Assembly: GCA_012964235.1 (NCBI GenBank)
Contig: DTUJ01000094.1
Span: 1 to 47,067, forward strand
DNA: 47,067 nucleotides
Reading direction: 5' to 3'
Source: Fidelibacterota bacterium
Lineage (GTDB): Bacteria; Fidelibacterota; Marinisomatia; Marinisomatales; UBA8229
Position numbers and translations under genes: made by a program. A model generated the notes under the pieces. It had not been told where the DNA came from, did no database searches, and worked only from the letters and a program-made list of their open reading frames with translations. How positions within the stretch are numbered: position 1 is the first letter of the stretch; every line of letters starts with the position of its first letter. Of the stretch, positions 6,412-12,407 are shown in pieces.

Positions 6412-8802
6412 TTATATCTGAAACCAATAGTTCAGCTTTATGAAGAGGGTGTTTGACTTGTAAGAATCCCATGAACCATCTAAAGAGGAAAAATGGTTAG
6501 AATCATTTAAGTTATATACAATGAACAAGGTGCTGCCGGGAAGATATTCCCAGCGCAGAACAAATGTTCCCACGCTGTTTCTTATTTTAAAATCAGGATC
6601 ATTGTTATATCCGTACGGTTCAAAGTCTAATGTTTTTGGTGCGGTTAGTCGTTTGAAATCAAAGTATTCCATATCTGCTCTGAATGGCTGGAGATACATC
6701 TGCAAAGACAGTTCAGGAGAAAATGTTAAATTCATTCGCAGTTGTATCTCATTGATTTTTTGCTTCGAATTGCTGTATATAATACTATCTTTGTCCACGG
6801 TTTCCACCCACTCAACCCTGGAATCATCATAATTTTCTGTCGCTTCCACAGATACCATTAAATAGTTGGTCGGTTTTAAGATAAGGCCGAATTGAACCTT
6901 ATAACCCCATCCACCTAAGTCATTCATGCCAAAACCAAGCACTGGAGCTACGATGACACGCTTTCTGGAATCGCTTTTAAGAAAGATCCACCCTCTTTTT
7001 GAAAAAGGAGATGCGATATCCCACGCAAGACTGTCCTGGAATGTATCGTCATCATCATAGGATGGAAAATCAACCTCGGCTCCAAATCCAAAACGCCAAT
7101 AGTTCTTTGTTGAGTTATTTTGTTCAATTCTAAGGTGTTTCGCCAGCGGCAGTCCATCATTTCGAGATTTGTAAAAAAAGCGATACTCCAGCTCATTCCT
7201 TAAGAATGGGCCCCAAGGATCCTGTCTCCGTATTTCCCCGAATATACCCGATTTCCAAAACCCATTTCTTTCCAAAAAACCCAGATCGTTAATATCAAAA
7301 GAATCACTAAACCAGGCGCCTATAATATTTACATTCCACCAGACAGGATCAGAATATCCTGCATAAAACCTCCCGGCATAGCCCTTATCCCCATTGACAT
7401 CTGATTGTGCCAGTTGTCCACTAAATCCAAACCGATTGTCAGACAACCGTACGTCCCAATCCAACCCGCCGGTGAATGCTCCCGTTGCCTCTTTTCGCCT
7501 GACATCCGTAACCATAGCACCGATGGTGGACACATCATTTATGATTGGTTTTTCAATGCGACCTACAAAATAATTTGTGTAGGGCTCCAAAAGAAAATCC
7601 TGGGCTAGAGTTGAGTCTCCAATTTCATATTCCCAAATTCCGTACTCTTCATCCGTCACACTTTCTATAACCCCAAAACTTAATCCGCTTTCTGTTTTTC
7701 CCATGATTTTTACCGCACTTAAAATTGTAGTAAAATCTGGACTTTCAATAATTTCTCCATGAGAGGGAGAAAAATATCCAGGCTCTTTGCCAATCCGCCT
7801 GGAATGGAAAAACTGGATACGATTCTTAAAAAAGGATCCTCCCTTAACAAAAAACGGTCGTTTTTCCTCATAAAAAGTTTCAAATGCACTGAGATTCAAC
7901 ACGGATGGGTCCGCTTCAACCTGCCCAAAATCGGGATTAAATGCCACATTCAGTGTCGTGTTGCTGCCAAGTCCATATTCTACATCAAGTCCAGTATTTT
8001 TAGTCAGACGATCATCATCGTTTTTGTGTATTCCTCCCAGAATATATGGTAAAATTTCTAATTGTTTGGGAGGAGGAACATCCTCGATGCCTCTCAGAAC
8101 TCCAAAACGTGACACAAATCCTTCAGTTCCCCGTTTTATCCCCGGCCACATTTGTTTTTCCTGTTTCCTTTGTATTCTCCGGTCAAGCAACATACCCCAT
8201 TCTTGATTCCCCACTGCACTGAACCTAAACATGGAAAAGGGAAGTTCGAATTCTGCCATCCAGCCCAGCTCATCCCTGTTCACTTCAACATCCCAGATTC
8301 CATTCCATGATATGTCAATTTCTTCATCGTCATAAATGTAGGCATCAAATTTGACTCCAGAAACATTGACACTAAAGGCAAAAGCTGTACGATTATCGTT
8401 TCGGCTGTCAAACATTACCCCCACCCAGTCAGCATTATTCTCTCCTGCTTCCATCCAGGAATCCCGTCGTGCAAGGCGCCCTACAATTTTTTCAGGTTCT
8501 GAGTCAAAGGCGCGGATAGCCACATAAATGTTGTCATCGTCGTAGAGTATGCGCACCTCAGTGAGTTCTATCAGACTTCCCAGATCTTCAGGCTCTACCT
8601 GTAAAAAGTCCGAAATGGGAACAGCTTTTTTCCAGACAGGATCAGTAAGGTCTCCATCAATTATTGGAGGAGTAGAAACCCTCACGGCAAAGGCTTCTTT
8701 TAAATGTAATGTAGCAGGATCAATTTTTGATGGGCTGGTTCCATTAAGTAATTGGGATAGCGCTACAACCAGCAAAAGTAGATGTGTTGGTATGCGATTC
8801 AT
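6412..8802 (-). CDS. CBM9-like domain / DUF5916-type outer-membrane-associated protein
   Basis: 796 aa with an N-terminal signal peptide. The block PPIIDGDLTDPVWKKAVPISDFLQVEP...ILYDDDNIYVAIRAF is typical of carbohydrate-binding family 9-like domains. A long beta-rich C-terminal region ends in an aromatic residue (YWFQI). Confidence 0.7.
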   Translation of the reverse strand: MNRIPTHLLLLVVALSQLLNGTSPSKIDPATLHLKEAFAVRVSTPPIIDGDLTDPVWKKAVPISDFLQVEPEDLGSLIELTEVRILYDDDNIYVAIRAFDSEPEKIVGRLARRDSWMEAGENNADWVGVMFDSRNDNRTAFAFSVNVSGVKFDAYIYDDEEIDISWNGIWDVEVNRDELGWMAEFELPFSMFRFSAVGNQEWGMLLDRRIQRKQEKQMWPGIKRGTEGFVSRFGVLRGIEDVPPPKQLEILPYILGGIHKNDDDRLTKNTGLDVEYGLGSNTTLNVAFNPDFGQVEADPSVLNLSAFETFYEEKRPFFVKGGSFFKNRIQFFHSRRIGKEPGYFSPSHGEIIESPDFTTILSAVKIMGKTESGLSFGVIESVTDEEYGIWEYEIGDSTLAQDFLLEPYTNYFVGRIEKPIINDVSTIGAMVTDVRRKEATGAFTGGLDWDVRLSDNRFGFSGQLAQSDVNGDKGYAGRFYAGYSDPVWWNVNIIGAWFSDSFDINDLGFLERNGFWKSGIFGEIRRQDPWGPFLRNELEYRFFYKSRNDGLPLAKHLRIEQNNSTKNYWRFGFGAEVDFPSYDDDDTFQDSLAWDIASPFSKRGWIFLKSDSRKRVIVAPVLGFGMNDLGGWGYKVQFGLILKPTNYLMVSVEATENYDDSRVEWVETVDKDSIIYSNSKQKINEIQLRMNLTFSPELSLQMYLQPFRADMEYFDFKRLTAPKTLDFEPYGYNNDPDFKIRNSVGTFVLRWEYLPGSTLFIVYNLNDSNHFSSLDGSWDSYKSNTLFIKLNYWFQI

Positions 8803-8834
8803 AGTTCTATTAGGTATTCGATATTAAAAAAAAG

Positions 8835-9839
8835 TTAAAATGATGATTGAAGGCAGGAAAAAAGCTTATTTTTCGGTAGATGATTTTCTAAAATAGTATT
8901 ACAAAAATTCATCATTTCTGTCTCAATTTCTTCTGAATAGGAAGTTAAACCATTTCGATTTTCAAGGGGGCCTGCAAACAAACGTTCATCCGGGTAAAGC
9001 CGTTCAATAGTATGAAACATTTTTTCCGGGAAACGCATTGGGCCAGTGCTCACAGAATGAATACTTTCAGCCGAAATCGTATAAAAAATTTCCTGAATCA
9101 ATTTCCTGTAATTTTTTTTATAGGATTCATGGTAAATCAACGGATCCAGACGTATCCCAACTCGCCAGCCTTTTTCAGCCAAGCTCTTCATTGTCTGTAT
9201 CCGTTTTTTTACAGGTGGGACACCATGTTCCAATTTTTGAGAAATATTTTCAGGAGTAAAACTATAGGCAACAACACAGTTGGGAATGACTTCATGATTC
9301 AATAATTCATCAACATTGATGCTTTTTGTGCGAAGTTCAAGAACTGCTTTTTTATGTTTTTGAAAGAAGGGAAGAAATTCCCGTACAAACCGGGTGACTG
9401 ATTCCAGAGCAAGGGAATCACAATCATAACCGGAGAAAAAAGTGATTTCTTTCTCATCAGGATTTTGTTCTACAATATTATTTATTTCATTCTGGAAATC
9501 TTCATAATTCACAAATAATACATAATTTGCTGAACGGTACATTCCCTGAAGGAAACAATATCTGCAGTCATAAATACAGTTGAGCATGTGGGAAAAATAA
9601 TAATTTTTCCTTCCACCAATTCCAAATCCTTTCGGAGCATCCAATATAAAATTCCCGTGTTTCCTGGCAAGAATAAGCGCCGGTTTCTTTTTCTGTAAAC
9701 GGAAATTCTGTTTTTTAGGATTGAATACTTCCCCATAGCGTTCACATTCCACAATCCTTGCTTTTGAAAAACGGCTGAGGATACTTTCAGTCCTGGGATG
9801 GCTTCGAATTTCCGATTCTATATAAATTGTTTCAATCAT
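8835..9839 (-). CDS. Spore-photoproduct-lyase (SPL) family radical SAM protein
   Basis: 334 aa with the CxxxCxxC cluster motif in NCIYDCRYCFLQGMY. It is collinear with B. subtilis SplB blocks as I recall them: the N-terminal IYIE, a basic K..L.L.RK segment, C-x3-C-x2-C-[YF]-LQ, and LRTKS. Its start lies 8 nt inside the upstream gene. Confidence 0.8.
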   Translation of the reverse strand: MIETIYIESEIRSHPRTESILSRFSKARIVECERYGEVFNPKKQNFRLQKKKPALILARKHGNFILDAPKGFGIGGRKNYYFSHMLNCIYDCRYCFLQGMYRSANYVLFVNYEDFQNEINNIVEQNPDEKEITFFSGYDCDSLALESVTRFVREFLPFFQKHKKAVLELRTKSINVDELLNHEVIPNCVVAYSFTPENISQKLEHGVPPVKKRIQTMKSLAEKGWRVGIRLDPLIYHESYKKNYRKLIQEIFYTISAESIHSVSTGPMRFPEKMFHTIERLYPDERLFAGPLENRNGLTSYSEEIETEMMNFCNTILENHLPKNKLFSCLQSSF

Positions 9840-10671
9840 GATCCATCCATACAGGTGTATTCTTCAAATGAAGATCCAATGTTTGAATGACATTACGGCT
9901 ATCCTTACAGTTAGGTAATAAAACATCTAAAACATTTTTCCCTGGCTGAAGTAATAACCATTTCCGGAGGAGAGATTTCAATTGATGGGTTTGAGTGACA
10001 GTAAAATGCCAGAGGGAAAGGCACTCTTGTAAAAATGGAGGATCTGAAGTTCTTTCTTCTTCCTCCATTGATAAAACCTGAAGTTTTCTCACCAACTCTT
10101 TTATGCTTGATAGATTTCTGTTAACTAATTCATCAACCATAGTTTCAGTAAGTGGTGGCCTGGAAAGAGACTGAGAATTATCAGAAATTATTTTCATGCA
10201 GTGAATAATTTCCCTTGTTGAATATGATTCCGCAGCAGAATAAAATCCAGATGCTTCCATTTCTACAACATTATCGTCTGGATAATTAAAGTCAGGTTTT
10301 TCAACTGTTTTAACTGATGCCGTTAAACATGGTGGATCGAATACCAACTGTGGAAACCATGACTGTTTCGTTTTAGAATCAACAATCCTTTGAGCTAAAA
10401 TAGCTGTCGCCAGTGGTAAATCTTTGTGACCGCCAATTCCTATATTCAACCAAGCTGTTGTACTAGTATCGTCTTTCGAAACTGAAGCAAGGTGTTTTGT
10501 TGCTTTTAATGAAGCAGATGATCCAATACCTGAAATAATAAGCCGGATTGAATGATCTTGATTAGAATAGACCTTGAATAAGGTGGAATCCCTTTTCCTG
10601 AGATTGAAATGACTGATTATTGGTTTTGCCTCGCAAGAGAGAGCAACTACAAAATTTACTTTTCCTATCAC
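9832..10671 (-). CDS. PNP_UDP_1 / MTA-SAH-nucleosidase-fold protein with an unassigned ~90-aa C-terminal extension
   Basis: 279 aa. The N-terminal ~190 aa show nucleosidase-like blocks FVVALSCEAKP, SGIGSSAS, IGIGGH and VEMEASGFY (compare the DMES/EME block of Pfs and HpnG). The GTG start overlaps the TGA stop of the GT2 gene (GTGA at 10668-10671). Confidence 0.6.
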   Translation of the reverse strand: MIGKVNFVVALSCEAKPIISHFNLRKRDSTLFKVYSNQDHSIRLIISGIGSSASLKATKHLASVSKDDTSTTAWLNIGIGGHKDLPLATAILAQRIVDSKTKQSWFPQLVFDPPCLTASVKTVEKPDFNYPDDNVVEMEASGFYSAAESYSTREIIHCMKIISDNSQSLSRPPLTETMVDELVNRNLSSIKELVRKLQVLSMEEEERTSDPPFLQECLSLWHFTVTQTHQLKSLLRKWLLLQPGKNVLDVLLPNCKDSRNVIQTLDLHLKNTPVWMDHD

Positions 10672-11486
10672 GATAAAAATTCTGAGTATTGTTCTTTAAA
10701 TTTTTTGACTTCCTTTATATTGCCTCGTTTTTGGGCACCCTGAATAAAAATATATATTTTTTCCATCAGCATTTTTTTTGCTGCATTTTCATCCAATTCT
10801 GAAAGTACTCTTGAAGATATGATTTTCTCCAAGGACTTAATTCGGAATCGGTCCATACCCCAGTATTTTTTGGAAAGCTGATCCTCATGACCCCCATATT
10901 TGATAAGAAACGGTTCCTCGATATACAACACTGGATTCCGTGCAGTAATACGGAGCCACAAATCGTAATCTTCACACACGGGAAGAGAGTAATCAAATAA
11001 TCCGATCTCTTTAAAAATACTTTTGTGAATTATCACACTAGATGGAGAAATACAACACAATGGCAGACACTTTTGAAAAATCCATCCGCCAAATTTTTCG
11101 TGTTTCTTTTTAGGATTAACCCTTTTTCCATTCCGAATCCAGATTTCGTTTGTATGACATATTTTTATTTCGGGATTTTCATAAAGCGCTTTCATCTGGA
11201 TTTCTAGTTTTTCCGGGAGCCATTCATCATCTGAATCAAGAAATGCAATCCAGTCGCCAGATGCACGTTTTATTCCCACATTTCTAGCACTGCTTACACC
11301 AGTATTTTGTTGCTGAATAAACACAATCTCCGGATACTCGGAAGTCATCAAAGCTAAGGTTTCATCGGTGGATCCATCATCCACAACGATAATTTCCTTT
11401 GGTGAGCAGGATTGACATAAAATTGAATCAAGAGTCCTGGGAAGCTGATGGGCGCGATTGTACGTTGGAACGATGACGGAGATCAT
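10668..11486 (-). CDS. Family 2 glycosyltransferase
   Basis: MISVIVPTYNR..., VVDDGSTDET and the DxD block FLDSDDEW are the classic GT-A/GT2 N-terminal domain. I prefer the ATG at 11486 over the tracked GTG at 11507. Confidence 0.85.
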   Translation of the reverse strand: MISVIVPTYNRAHQLPRTLDSILCQSCSPKEIIVVDDGSTDETLALMTSEYPEIVFIQQQNTGVSSARNVGIKRASGDWIAFLDSDDEWLPEKLEIQMKALYENPEIKICHTNEIWIRNGKRVNPKKKHEKFGGWIFQKCLPLCCISPSSVIIHKSIFKEIGLFDYSLPVCEDYDLWLRITARNPVLYIEEPFLIKYGGHEDQLSKKYWGMDRFRIKSLEKIISSRVLSELDENAAKKMLMEKIYIFIQGAQKRGNIKEVKKFKEQYSEFLS

Positions 11487-11708
11487 TGTACAGATCACTC
11501 TACTCACTTCCCCACAATAATTGGTTGTTTACCAAAAAGTTTTGCAATACTATTGTGATAAGAAAAGGTTTTACTGTCTTTTTCACCTATCCACATATTT
11601 TTAAATAGTAATATTAAAGTAAACTAATGTTATGAATGTAAGTTTAAGGATACTTTTGAACCTTCCTTCTTTTCTTTTTTGTAATAAATTTAAAAGTAAT
11701 TTTAGTAA

Positions 11709-12407
11709 GTGAACAAACAAAGCTATATCGAACCGGAATATATCCAAATCCCCGAAGGTAGTTTTCTTATGGGAAGTAAAAACGGTTCATCAAATGAAGC
11801 GCCTATCCATACTGTTTGGGTTGATTCTTTTGCAATTGGTAAATATCCGGTAACAAACAGAGAGTATGCATTGTTCATAAAAATGAAAGCATATCCTCCT
11901 CCTCCATTTTGGAATAAACCAAAATTTTCAACCCCGGATCATCCTGTAGTTGGTACCAGTTGGTACGATGCAAACACATATTGTAATTGGTTAAAAGAGT
12001 TAACGGGAAAACCTTACCTTTTACCAACTGAAGCAGAACGGGAGAAAGCCGCACGAGGCGGTGTGGAAGGATGTGAATATTCCTGGGGAAACAAACTCCC
12101 TGGGAACCATTTGGGAGGACGAAATGATTATCTTACCATTAAGGGAACTGAAGGGAAAAATGGTTATAACCTTTACAATATGTCAGAGGGTATCCATGAA
12201 TGGTGCGCAGATTGGTATGATCCAAATTACTATGATATTTCTCCAAACCGAAATCCCAATGGTCCCAAGCGTGGTGCCCGCCGTGTGGCAAGGGGAGGAT
12301 CATGGCGGCACCTAATCCGCTTCACGCGTTGTGCAGCACGAAGCAGTCTTGCTCCTGAAAAACAGTTCAGTGATTTCGGTTTTCGCTGTGCAATGAACAT
12401 TTATTAA
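11709..12407 (+). CDS. Formylglycine-generating-enzyme (SUMF1/EgtB/PvdO) family protein
   Basis: 232 aa with a GTG start. The blocks FLMGS..., YPVTNREY, TSWYDANTYCNWL, LPTEAEREKAARGG, ARGGSWRH and GFRC are typical of the FGE-sulfatase fold. There is no signal peptide. Confidence 0.75.
   Translation: MNKQSYIEPEYIQIPEGSFLMGSKNGSSNEAPIHTVWVDSFAIGKYPVTNREYALFIKMKAYPPPPFWNKPKFSTPDHPVVGTSWYDANTYCNWLKELTGKPYLLPTEAEREKAARGGVEGCEYSWGNKLPGNHLGGRNDYLTIKGTEGKNGYNLYNMSEGIHEWCADWYDPNYYDISPNRNPNGPKRGARRVARGGSWRHLIRFTRCAARSSLAPEKQFSDFGFRCAMNIY

What the first reader, a model, noticed from the sequence alone, without database searches (positions are those of the whole stretch)
8835..11486. Translationally coupled operon: GT2 glycosyltransferase -> nucleosidase-fold protein with novel C-terminal domain -> SPL-family radical SAM enzyme
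Seen: three minus-strand genes overlap (GTGA at 10668-10671 and an 8-nt overlap at 9832-9839), so they form one expression unit. The last gene has the C-x3-C-x2-C-F-L-Q cluster motif and is collinear with spore photoproduct lyase. Nothing in the window suggests an endospore former, and several neighbours look Gram-negative-like. The middle gene has a Pfs/HpnG-like nucleosidase fold (…VEMEASGFY…) plus a C-terminal segment of about 90 aa (from …EERTSDPPFLQECLSLWHF…) that I cannot assign. Established: radical SAM enzyme + adenine-releasing nucleosidase + GT2 is the enzyme logic of hopanoid side-chain assembly (HpnH/HpnG/HpnI). Radical SAM + nucleosidase is also used in the futalosine route (MqnE/MqnB). 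In both, the 5'-deoxyadenosyl radical is added to the substrate and adenine is then removed. Inference: this operon could build a ribosyl- or C5-linked, subsequently glycosylated product by the same adenosylation/deadenination logic, using a different (SPL-type) radical SAM scaffold. The target could be a lipid, a cofactor, or, given SPL's thymine chemistry, a modified nucleobase or DNA. A more mundane alternative is that the nucleosidase only removes inhibitory 5'-deoxyadenosine. The operon is markedly AT-rich and faces an FGE-family gene across a 222-nt divergent region.
Basis: partly seen in the sequence, partly recalled or inferred. Interest (0 to 1): 0.7.

Follow-up and report, generated by a model that had tools for sequence, protein, structure and literature searches.

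The report
Conserved glycosyltransferase-nucleosidase-radical SAM gene cassette

Summary
Three intact minus-strand genes overlap by 4 and 8 nt: GT2 (10668-11486/11507), an MTAN-fold nucleosidase I call NUC (9832-10671), and an SPL-family radical SAM enzyme (8835-9839).

- **Co-conservation:** among 83 loci found through NUC, from at least 8 phyla, SPL follows NUC directly in 64 and GT2 precedes it in 54. All three occur together in 46, and a short-chain dehydrogenase (SDR) follows SPL in 20.
- **Fusion:** in the Fusobacterium nucleatum group, NUC and SPL form one 623-aa protein followed by the SDR.
- **NUC:** it keeps the MTAN catalytic residues, and its family is closest to futalosine hydrolase and MTAN. 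A tail of about 75 aa has no Pfam or PDB match and occurs only in this architecture (1121 clusters).
- **SPL-like enzyme:** it scores far below the SplB model. In this clade it lacks the H-donor Cys and Tyr98 of true SP lyase.
- **Corrections:** the operon is not markedly AT-rich, and the FGE gene is only a lineage-specific neighbour.

Function is unproven. My best reading (0.35) is radical adenosylation of an unknown acceptor, adenine removal, then glycosylation. Rivals are nucleoside rearrangement, 5'-deoxyadenosine clearance, and nucleic-acid chemistry. I found no paper on the module.

The parts
10668..11507 (-). GT2 glycosyltransferase gene. The ORF runs from GTG 11507; the likely start is ATG 11486 (272 aa). 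It carries DDGS, a DSDD (DxD) motif and a CEDYDLWLR motif.
   Evidence: PF00535 120 bits; motifs invariant in 55 homologues; 50-65% identity across phyla.
9832..10671 (-). NUC: MTAN-fold nucleosidase (279 aa, GTG start). Residues E14, M138-E139, K160 and S163-D164 match E. coli MTAN E12, M173-E174, R193 and S196-D197.
   Evidence: invariant columns; pLDDT 94.5; Foldseek MTAN/futalosine hydrolase, E 1e-11; 53/69 family members hit TIGR03664 weakly; profile alignment to MTAN.
9835..10116 (-). C-terminal helical region of NUC (residues 186-279). The first long helix corresponds to the last MTAN helix. The remaining ~75 aa form an unassigned helical domain with the motif WHFTVTQxHQLxxLLxRW.
   Evidence: no Pfam; present in all 82 locus homologues; 1121 clusters; always at the C-terminus of ~270-290-aa proteins in the top 150; no PDB fold match.
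8835..9839 (-). SPL-family radical SAM enzyme (334 aa). It carries C88xxxC92xxC95-FLQ and an invariant SGYDCDS motif.
   Evidence: PF20903 78 bits; TIGR04070 94 bits against a cutoff of 400; SP lyase PDB chains, E 6e-13; conservation in 62 sequences.
10668..10671 (-). GTGA overlap: GT2 stop and NUC start.
9832..9839 (-). ATGATTGA overlap: SPL start and NUC stop.
11487..11708 (.). 222-nt AT-rich (25.7% GC) divergent intergenic region. It is presumed to hold the promoter of the cassette, but no convincing sigma-70 match was found.

Best explanation
The three genes are one copy of a widespread, uncharacterised metabolic module. Its core is the NUC nucleosidase working physically with the SPL-fold radical SAM enzyme.

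Proposed mechanism, with each step marked:
- **Step 1 (inferred).** The SPL-like enzyme cleaves SAM reductively. Instead of repairing DNA, it adds the 5'-deoxyadenosyl radical to an sp2 carbon of an unknown acceptor, as MqnE and HpnH do. The product is a 5'-substituted adenosine.
- **Step 2 (catalytic capacity shown by sequence and fold; substrate inferred).** NUC hydrolyses the N-glycosidic bond and releases adenine. A ribosyl (C5) group stays on the acceptor. The ~75-aa NUC tail probably docks NUC to the radical SAM enzyme.
- **Step 3 (inferred; this gene is absent from the window).** In many lineages an SDR encoded right after SPL reduces the ribose hemiacetal to a polyol.
- **Step 4 (inferred).** GT2 glycosylates the product from an NDP-sugar.
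For: - **Co-conservation across at least 8 phyla.** In 83 NUC-selected loci, SPL is directly downstream in 64, GT2 directly upstream in 54, all three together in 46, and an SDR follows SPL in 20. Flanking genes differ between lineages.
- **Reverse sampling from SPL-like proteins.** NUC is adjacent in 3 of 5, the SDR in 4 of 5 (with 4- to 13-nt overlaps), and GT2 in 1 of 5.
- **Natural fusion.** A 623-aa NUC-SPL protein, in the same order as the genes here and followed by the SDR, occurs in the Fusobacterium nucleatum group.
- **NUC looks active.** It keeps the full MTAN catalytic set and has an MTAN/futalosine-hydrolase fold. Its family's best HMM relatives are futalosine hydrolase (53/69 members) and MTAN. 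Both act on 5'-substituted adenosines, and futalosine hydrolase acts after an adenosylating radical SAM enzyme.
- **The SPL-like enzyme is not SplB.** It scores 94 bits against the SplB equivalog cutoff of 400. It has Tyr where SP lyase has the H-donor Cys140 and Phe where SP lyase has Tyr98.
- **Not mobile.** The module is essentially absent from phages and plasmids.
- **Precedent (established knowledge; PMC13459092).** Radical SAM, then nucleosidase, then reduction, then GT2 is the order of bacteriohopanepolyol side-chain assembly (HpnH, HpnG, ring opening/reduction, HpnI).
Against: - No adduct, acceptor or activity was observed. Everything after 'they work together on an adenine nucleoside' is inference.
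- The SPL fold has no known adenosylating member.
- No homology to HpnG or HpnH was detected.
- 5'-deoxyadenosine, the universal radical SAM by-product, is also an MTAN-type substrate, so NUC's features do not separate this reading from the clearance rival.
- GT2 is missing from many NUC-SPL loci (Chlamydiota, Omnitrophota, Fusobacterium). The SDR is missing here.
- Some Methylococcales loci have GT2-NUC without an adjacent SPL.
- The tail's docking role is untested. Its profile does not detectably match the linker of the Fusobacterium fusion.
Confidence: 0.35

Rival explanations
1. Nucleoside rearrangement route. The SPL-like enzyme abstracts a hydrogen from an adenosine-type substrate (adenosine, 5'-deoxyadenosine, MTA/SAH or an ADP-sugar) and dehydrates or rearranges its sugar, as viperin or DesII do. 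NUC then frees the modified sugar from adenine, the SDR reduces the resulting keto group, and GT2 passes it on or decorates it.
For: The same co-conservation and fusion data apply. NUC's adenine-nucleoside catalytic set fits. SDRs typically partner keto-sugar chemistry, and the SDR is translationally coupled to SPL. A PTP-like phosphatase lies between GT2 and NUC in 14 gammaproteobacterial loci and hints at a phosphorylated intermediate.
Against: No kinase or nucleotidyltransferase is present to activate a freed sugar for GT2. No precedent exists in the SPL family. Nothing identifies the substrate.
Confidence: 0.2
2. Housekeeping clearance. The SPL-like enzyme does some unrelated radical reaction, and NUC only removes inhibitory 5'-deoxyadenosine next to it.
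For: MTAN-type enzymes hydrolyse 5'-deoxyadenosine (established knowledge). NUC has the MTAN catalytic residues. Fusion to the radical SAM enzyme would place the scavenger at the source.
Against: This reading does not explain the conserved GT2 and SDR partners. It does not explain why a private nucleosidase is tied to this one radical SAM family, nor the family-specific tail.
Confidence: 0.15
3. Nucleic-acid-directed chemistry. The SPL-like enzyme keeps a pyrimidine/DNA or RNA substrate, either for repair of a dihydropyrimidine-type lesion or for installing a base hypermodification. NUC and GT2 then trim and glycosylate an adenosyl adduct on the base.
For: The enzyme is collinear with SP lyase, and the Arg equivalent to Arg273 is retained. 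The window protein is basic (pI 8.6; the aligned core has charge +9.5, like SP lyase). Earlier notes of this scan report a sister clade with a ParB-like partner (not tested here). GT2 has a sub-threshold hit to the TET-associated glycosyltransferase family.
Against: The H-donor Cys140 and Tyr98 positions of SP lyase are replaced in this clade. The family median pI is about 7.2. No DNA-binding partner is present in this clade's loci. The module is nearly absent from phages, where DNA hypermodification genes are common. The beta-hairpin region could not be aligned.
Confidence: 0.2
4. An ordinary spore photoproduct lyase with unrelated neighbours.
For: Public annotations call homologues 'spore photoproduct lyase' or 'DNA photolyase'. 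PF20903 matches.
Against: The score is 94 bits against the TIGR04070 cutoff of 400. The hosts are non-sporulating Marinimicrobia, Gammaproteobacteria, Chlamydiota and others. Catalytic relay residues are replaced. The partners are co-conserved and in Fusobacterium fused.
Confidence: 0.03

Closest known systems
Spore photoproduct lyase SplB (EC 4.1.99.14; TIGR04070; PDB 4FHC/4FHD/4K9R)
   Same: Same Pfam family (PF20903). The CxxxCxxC-(F/Y)LQ cluster motif is shared, and the protein is collinear over about 285 residues (E 6e-13). The Tyr96 and Arg273 equivalents are kept.
   Different: It scores 94 bits against the equivalog cutoff of 400. Tyr replaces the H-donor Cys140 and Phe replaces Tyr98 in this clade. 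The hosts do not sporulate. The gene is always paired, and in Fusobacterium fused, with a nucleosidase, and often with an SDR or GT2.
Bacteriohopanepolyol side-chain pathway (HpnH radical SAM, HpnG nucleosidase/phosphorylase, reduction, HpnI GT2)
   Same: The same set of enzyme types and the same plausible order: radical SAM, adenine-releasing PNP/MTAN-superfamily enzyme, reduction, GT2 glycosylation.
   Different: No sequence membership: there are no HpnG or HpnH model hits. The radical SAM scaffold is SPL-type. No hopanoid genes are nearby, and the hosts include lineages not known for hopanoids. This is an analogy only.
Futalosine route (MqnE aminofutalosine synthase with MqnB futalosine hydrolase/MTAN)
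   Same: The NUC family's most frequent HMM relative is futalosine hydrolase (53 of 69 members, sub-threshold), and the fold matches PDB 4BMY/4BMZ. The logic of radical adenosylation followed by base removal is shared.
   Different: All scores are below the TIGR03664 cutoff, and the window protein itself gives no hit at E<=0.01. There is an extra C-terminal domain. The partner radical SAM enzyme is not MqnE-like, and no other mqn genes are present.
MTA/SAH nucleosidase (MtnN/Pfs)
   Same: Same fold (Foldseek E about 1e-11, TM 0.5-0.65) and the same catalytic residues (E12, M173-E174, R193 as Lys, S196-D197).
   Different: About 15% identity. The core is shorter and carries a ~75-aa extra helical domain. 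The gene is dedicated to an SPL-like radical SAM partner.

Membership tests
Spore photoproduct lyase SplB (TIGR04070) | Radical SAM CxxxCxxC cluster and a PF20903 match above gathering score | tested here: met
   C88/C92/C95 are invariant in 62 sequences. PF20903 scores 78 bits against a cutoff of 27.
Spore photoproduct lyase SplB (TIGR04070) | Score above the NCBIfam equivalog cutoff (400 bits) | tested here: not met
   94 bits. TIGR03886 (the non-sporulator SPL family) also scores only 75 bits against 437.
Spore photoproduct lyase SplB (TIGR04070) | H-atom donor cysteine (Gt Cys140, or the clostridial Cys at the Ser76 position) | tested here: not met
   The HMMER alignment puts an invariant Tyr138 at the Cys140 position and Lys at the Ser76 position. 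A Cys lies two residues downstream (90% conserved in this clade, Thr/Ala in the Fusobacterium and gut homologues), so a shifted donor is not excluded.
Spore photoproduct lyase SplB (TIGR04070) | Tyr98 (Gt numbering) of the radical relay | tested here: not met
   The motif is CFLQ, with Phe96 invariant in this clade. The Fusobacterium fusion has Tyr here.
Spore photoproduct lyase SplB (TIGR04070) | DNA-flipping beta-hairpin (Arg304/Tyr305) and Lys309 | tested here: inconclusive
   The alignment to SP lyase ends at query residue 288.
Spore photoproduct lyase SplB (TIGR04070) | Repairs 5-thyminyl-5,6-dihydrothymine in DNA | not testable with these tools
   Needs an anaerobic enzyme assay.
MTAN / futalosine hydrolase (PNP_UDP_1 superfamily hydrolases) | PNP/MTAN alpha-beta fold | tested here: met
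   AF2 model pLDDT 94.5. Foldseek top 50 hits are all MTAN, MTAP or futalosine hydrolase, E 7e-12 to 3e-10.
MTAN / futalosine hydrolase (PNP_UDP_1 superfamily hydrolases) | Catalytic Glu12, Met173-Glu174, Arg193, Ser196-Asp197 (E. coli numbering) | tested here: met
These residues are invariant or nearly so in 69 sequences.
MTAN / futalosine hydrolase (PNP_UDP_1 superfamily hydrolases) | Score above the curated HMM cutoffs (PF01048, TIGR03664, TIGR01704) | tested here: not met
   The window protein has no hit at E<=0.01. Family members give only sub-threshold hits.
Hopanoid side-chain enzymes HpnH/HpnG/HpnI | Sequence membership in the HpnG (TIGR03468) and HpnH (TIGR03470) models | tested here: not met
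   Neither model appears for NUC, its 69 relatives or the SPL-like protein. For HpnI the test is inconclusive: it is not among the 25 GT2 hits shown of 27.
GT2 glycosyltransferase (PF00535, GT-A fold) | Pfam match, DxD motif and catalytic ED motif | tested here: met
   PF00535 scores 120 bits. DSDD (91-94) and CEDYD (178-182) are invariant in 55 sequences.

The most novel reading that the evidence does not exclude
An SPL-fold radical SAM enzyme has been recruited as a further, independently evolved C-adenosylating enzyme, after MqnE, HpnH and ArsS. It would work in a complex (in Fusobacterium as a single polypeptide) with a private tailed nucleosidase. Together with an SDR and/or a GT2, it would attach a ribose-derived, sometimes glycosylated, C5 side chain to a still unknown and widely shared acceptor. 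That acceptor could be a lipid, a cofactor or, using the inherited pyrimidine pocket, a nucleobase. The result would be a metabolite or modification present from pelagic Marinimicrobia to oral Fusobacterium that nobody has described.
Probability: 0.3. Interest if true: 0.85.

Novelty: new variant of a known kind. Interest (0 to 1): 0.62.

Why it matters
- **Scale.** The module is large and spans many phyla: at least 1121 clusters at 50% identity carry the NUC tail, and 5328 SPL-like proteins matched (E<=0.001, clustered at 90% identity). It occurs in abundant ocean bacteria and in the Fusobacterium nucleatum group.
- **Misannotation.** Every public name for it is a misleading 'spore photoproduct lyase' or 'DNA photolyase'.
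- **If the adenosylation reading is right.** It adds a new scaffold to the very short list of radical SAM enzymes that use the 5'-deoxyadenosyl radical as a building block. It also points to an unknown metabolite or modification.
- **If it is wrong.** The conserved fusion and operon partners still define a tractable problem: cultured, genetically accessible hosts exist.

Tried and rejected
- **Literature.** Seven searches and a 2026 review of lipid-modifying radical SAM enzymes found no description of the module.
- **C-terminal tail.**
  - Pfam at E<=10 gave only noise.
  - The isolated-domain model (pLDDT 77) had no PDB fold match.
  - A profile search of 1.84 billion representatives showed no other architecture and no fusions in the top 150.
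  - hhalign of the tail profile against the Fusobacterium linker and the gut NUC tail was not significant, so I do not claim the tail is retained there.
- **Charge and pI as a DNA-binding proxy.** This did not discriminate.
- **A 1119-aa 'fusion' ORF in L027.** It is an overlapping-frame artefact of a GC-rich contig.
- **Other conserved neighbours**. Apt, a FabG-like SDR on the opposite strand, a PutP-like symporter, ThiC and GlnE are confined to one gammaproteobacterial synteny block and were rejected as module members.
- **FGE and DUF5916 neighbours in the window.** They are not conserved beyond the nearest relative.
- **Promoter and terminator scans.** Results were at or below shuffle expectation.
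Full report
**1. What is in the sequence**

Three intact minus-strand ORFs occupy 8835-11507.
- The GT2 stop and the NUC GTG start share GTGA at 10668-10671.
- The NUC stop and the SPL ATG share ATGATTGA at 9832-9839.
- Homologues of GT2 align from residue 7-9 of the longest ORF, so the ATG at 11486 is the probable start. That leaves the 222-nt, 25.7% GC divergent gap to the FGE-like gene.

The stretch is present almost whole in at least 20 marine and hydrothermal-plume metagenome runs. Contigs from metatranscriptome libraries span both gene junctions (9802-10041, 10012-10697, 9772-10020). This is weak support for co-transcription, because contigs carry no strand and DNA carry-over is possible. 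The nearest relatives are Marinimicrobia / Neomarinimicrobiota MAGs, so the host is not an endospore former.

**2. Family assignments**

*GT2.* It matches PF00535 at 120 bits. The DDGS, DSDD and CEDYD motifs are invariant. No specific NCBIfam or PDB relative turned up beyond generic GT-A enzymes.

*SPL-like.* It matches PF20903 at 78 bits. It scores only 94 bits against TIGR04070 (cutoff 400) and 75 bits against TIGR03886 (cutoff 437). It aligns to G. thermodenitrificans SP lyase over residues 5-288 (E 6e-13).
- I used the residue roles given in PMC3467042 and conservation in 62 clade members.
- The cluster cysteines, the Tyr96 equivalent and the Arg273 equivalent are kept.
- The H-donor Cys140 position holds an invariant Tyr (motif SGYDCDS), and the clostridial alternative position holds Lys.
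- Tyr98 is an invariant Phe.
- A Cys two residues after the Tyr is 90% conserved in this clade, but it is Thr or Ala in more distant members.

*NUC.* It has no Pfam or NCBIfam hit of its own and no PDB sequence hit.
- Its AlphaFold2 model is confident (pLDDT 94.5).
- The 50 best PDB matches are all MTA/SAH nucleosidases, MTA phosphorylase or futalosine hydrolase (E about 1e-11).
- A family profile aligned to E. coli MTAN equates E14 with Glu12, M138-E139 with Met173-Glu174, K160 with Arg193 and S163-D164 with Ser196-Asp197. The Glu12 and Asp197 mutant structures appear.
- All these residues are invariant or nearly so.
- Across 69 family members the commonest weak HMM relatives are futalosine hydrolase (53), 'nucleosidase' PRK05634 (42), MTAN (41) and PF01048 (40). 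HpnG never appears.

NUC therefore looks like an active, hydrolase-type, adenine-releasing enzyme for 5'-substituted adenosines.

**3. The C-terminal tail of NUC**

The MTAN fold ends with the long helix at about residues 187-208. The remaining ~75 residues form four short helices with the motif WHFTVTQxHQLxxLLxRW.
- The tail is present in all 82 locus homologues.
- It has no Pfam match even at E<=10.
- It has no PDB fold match when modelled alone (pLDDT 77).
- A profile of it finds 1121 clusters at 50% identity among 1.84 billion representatives. In the best 150 it is always at the C-terminus of 270-290-aa proteins or fragments of them.

So the tail is a family-specific domain. I suggest it docks NUC to the radical SAM enzyme. 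That is inference only, and its profile does not detectably match the linker of the Fusobacterium fusion.

**4. Is the trio conserved?**

Yes. The 80 best come from the following groups, and all are MAGs:
- Marinimicrobia
- many Gammaproteobacteria (Methylococcales, Thiotrichaceae, Legionellales, Coxiella, Arenicellales, Acidiferrobacterales)
- Acidobacteriota
- Chlamydiota (Simkaniaceae)
- Omnitrophota
- Planctomycetota
- Verrucomicrobiales
- Latescibacterota

Counts in 83 non-redundant loci:

| Arrangement | Loci |
|---|---|
| SPL-like directly downstream of NUC | 64 |
| GT2 directly upstream of NUC | 54 |
| All three together | 46 |
| Classical ~240-aa SDR directly after SPL | 20 |

SPL-like and GT2 are 50-65% identical across phyla, while NUC is only 32-45% identical. 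Flanking genes differ between lineages, so synteny alone does not explain the linkage.

I then sampled from the other side. Five SPL-like proteins (57% identity) on long contigs have NUC adjacent in 3, the SDR adjacent with 4- to 13-nt overlaps in 4, and GT2 in 1. The constant core is therefore SPL-like plus NUC and/or SDR. GT2 is a frequent accessory gene that this lineage has, and the SDR is a frequent member that this locus lacks. No good SDR match exists elsewhere in the window.

**5. Fusion**

A tblastn search of plasmid records hit a 2.1-Mb Fusobacterium vincentii replicon. It contains a single 623-aa ORF.
- Residues 5-244 align to NUC residues 8-244 (E 5e-19). The EAKP, DMEA and KIVSD motifs are kept.
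- Residues 302-622 align to the SPL-like protein residues 5-327 (34% identity, E 6e-64).
- An SDR gene follows 213 nt downstream.

The fusion is conserved at over 92% identity in F. nucleatum, F. polymorphum, F. animalis and F. watanabei, where it is named 'spore photoproduct lyase (family protein)'. An unverified 'phage' contig from human faeces carries separate NUC-like, SPL-like and SDR genes in the same order. A fusion in the same order as the genes is strong evidence that the two enzymes act together.

**6. Mechanism**

*Shown.* The genes form a coupled, co-conserved and sometimes fused unit. NUC has the fold and residues of an adenine-releasing nucleosidase. In this clade the radical SAM enzyme lacks two residues needed for the SP lyase radical relay. 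The hosts do not sporulate. The module is chromosomal and nearly absent from phages and plasmids.

*Inferred.* I think the most likely reading (0.35) is radical C-adenosylation of an unknown acceptor, adenine removal by NUC, reduction by the SDR where present, and glycosylation by GT2. This mirrors HpnH/HpnG/reduction/HpnI and MqnE/MqnB (for the hopanoid steps).

Rivals:
- The radical SAM enzyme rearranges or dehydrates an adenosine-type substrate, and NUC then frees the modified sugar (0.2).
- NUC merely clears 5'-deoxyadenosine (0.15). This does not explain GT2, the SDR or the tail.
- Nucleic-acid repair or hypermodification (0.2). The SPL ancestry, the basic window protein and a reported ParB-linked sister clade (untested) favour it. 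The lost relay residues, the neutral family pI, the absence of a DNA-binding partner here and the rarity in phages count against it.
- Canonical SplB (0.03).

**7.
- The operon is not markedly AT-rich: 36.7% against 39.8%, within one standard deviation of equal-sized windows.
- The FGE gene is conserved next to it only in the closest relative, L006, so it is not part of the module.
- The HpnG likeness is one of fold and logic only. The nearest sequence families are futalosine hydrolase and MTAN.

**8. Novelty and limits**

I found no paper on the module. Earlier agents of this scan met the same cassette in other genomes. That is not independent evidence, but it shows how common the module is. 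I could not test whether these genomes lack a general MTAN, or where the SDR lies in this genome. Both structure-prediction slots went to NUC, so the SPL-like beta-hairpin question stays open.

Noticed in passing
window 6412-8802 (-): A 796-aa secreted protein with a CBM9-like domain and DUF5916 starts 32 nt after the SPL-like stop. Metatranscriptome contigs span that junction (8618-8886, 8495-8897), so it may be co-transcribed. It is not next to the module in any other locus.
   Followed up: partly
window 11709-12407 (+): A compact FGE/SUMF1-fold protein lies divergent to the cassette. It is conserved beside the cassette only in the nearest relative (L006, 94% identity), so it is a lineage-specific neighbour.
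   Followed up: partly
L024:4169-4651, L036:5537-6001 and 12 other gammaproteobacterial loci: A 150-160-aa DSP/PTP-like phosphatase (HCxxxxxR loop; PF22741 34-36 bits) is inserted between GT2 and NUC. This may hint at a phosphorylated intermediate.
   Followed up: partly
L024:1089-1604 and 11 other gammaproteobacterial loci: Adenine phosphoribosyltransferase (apt) lies a few genes upstream of the cassette in one gammaproteobacterial synteny block. That is suggestive for adenine salvage but is confined to one clade.
   Followed up: no
L091 (NZ_CP084075.1) and L092 (MT835770.1): Two database labels look wrong. The 2.1-Mb Fusobacterium vincentii 'plasmid pSB055A' is chromosome-sized. The UNVERIFIED 'Bacteriophage sp.' contig from human faeces carries a bacterial NUC / SPL-like / SDR operon.
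   Followed up: partly
L086:2536-3900: An aldehyde dehydrogenase gene sits directly upstream of an SPL-like / SDR pair that lacks an adjacent NUC. It might act on an open-chain sugar aldehyde. This is a single case.
   Followed up: no
L035, L040, L047, L067, L068, L072, L077 (mostly Methylococcales; also Chromatiaceae and unclassified Proteobacteria): These loci have GT2-NUC without an adjacent SPL-like gene. In Methylomonas (L003) NUC stands alone. Either SPL is elsewhere in those genomes or NUC has a second role.
   Followed up: no
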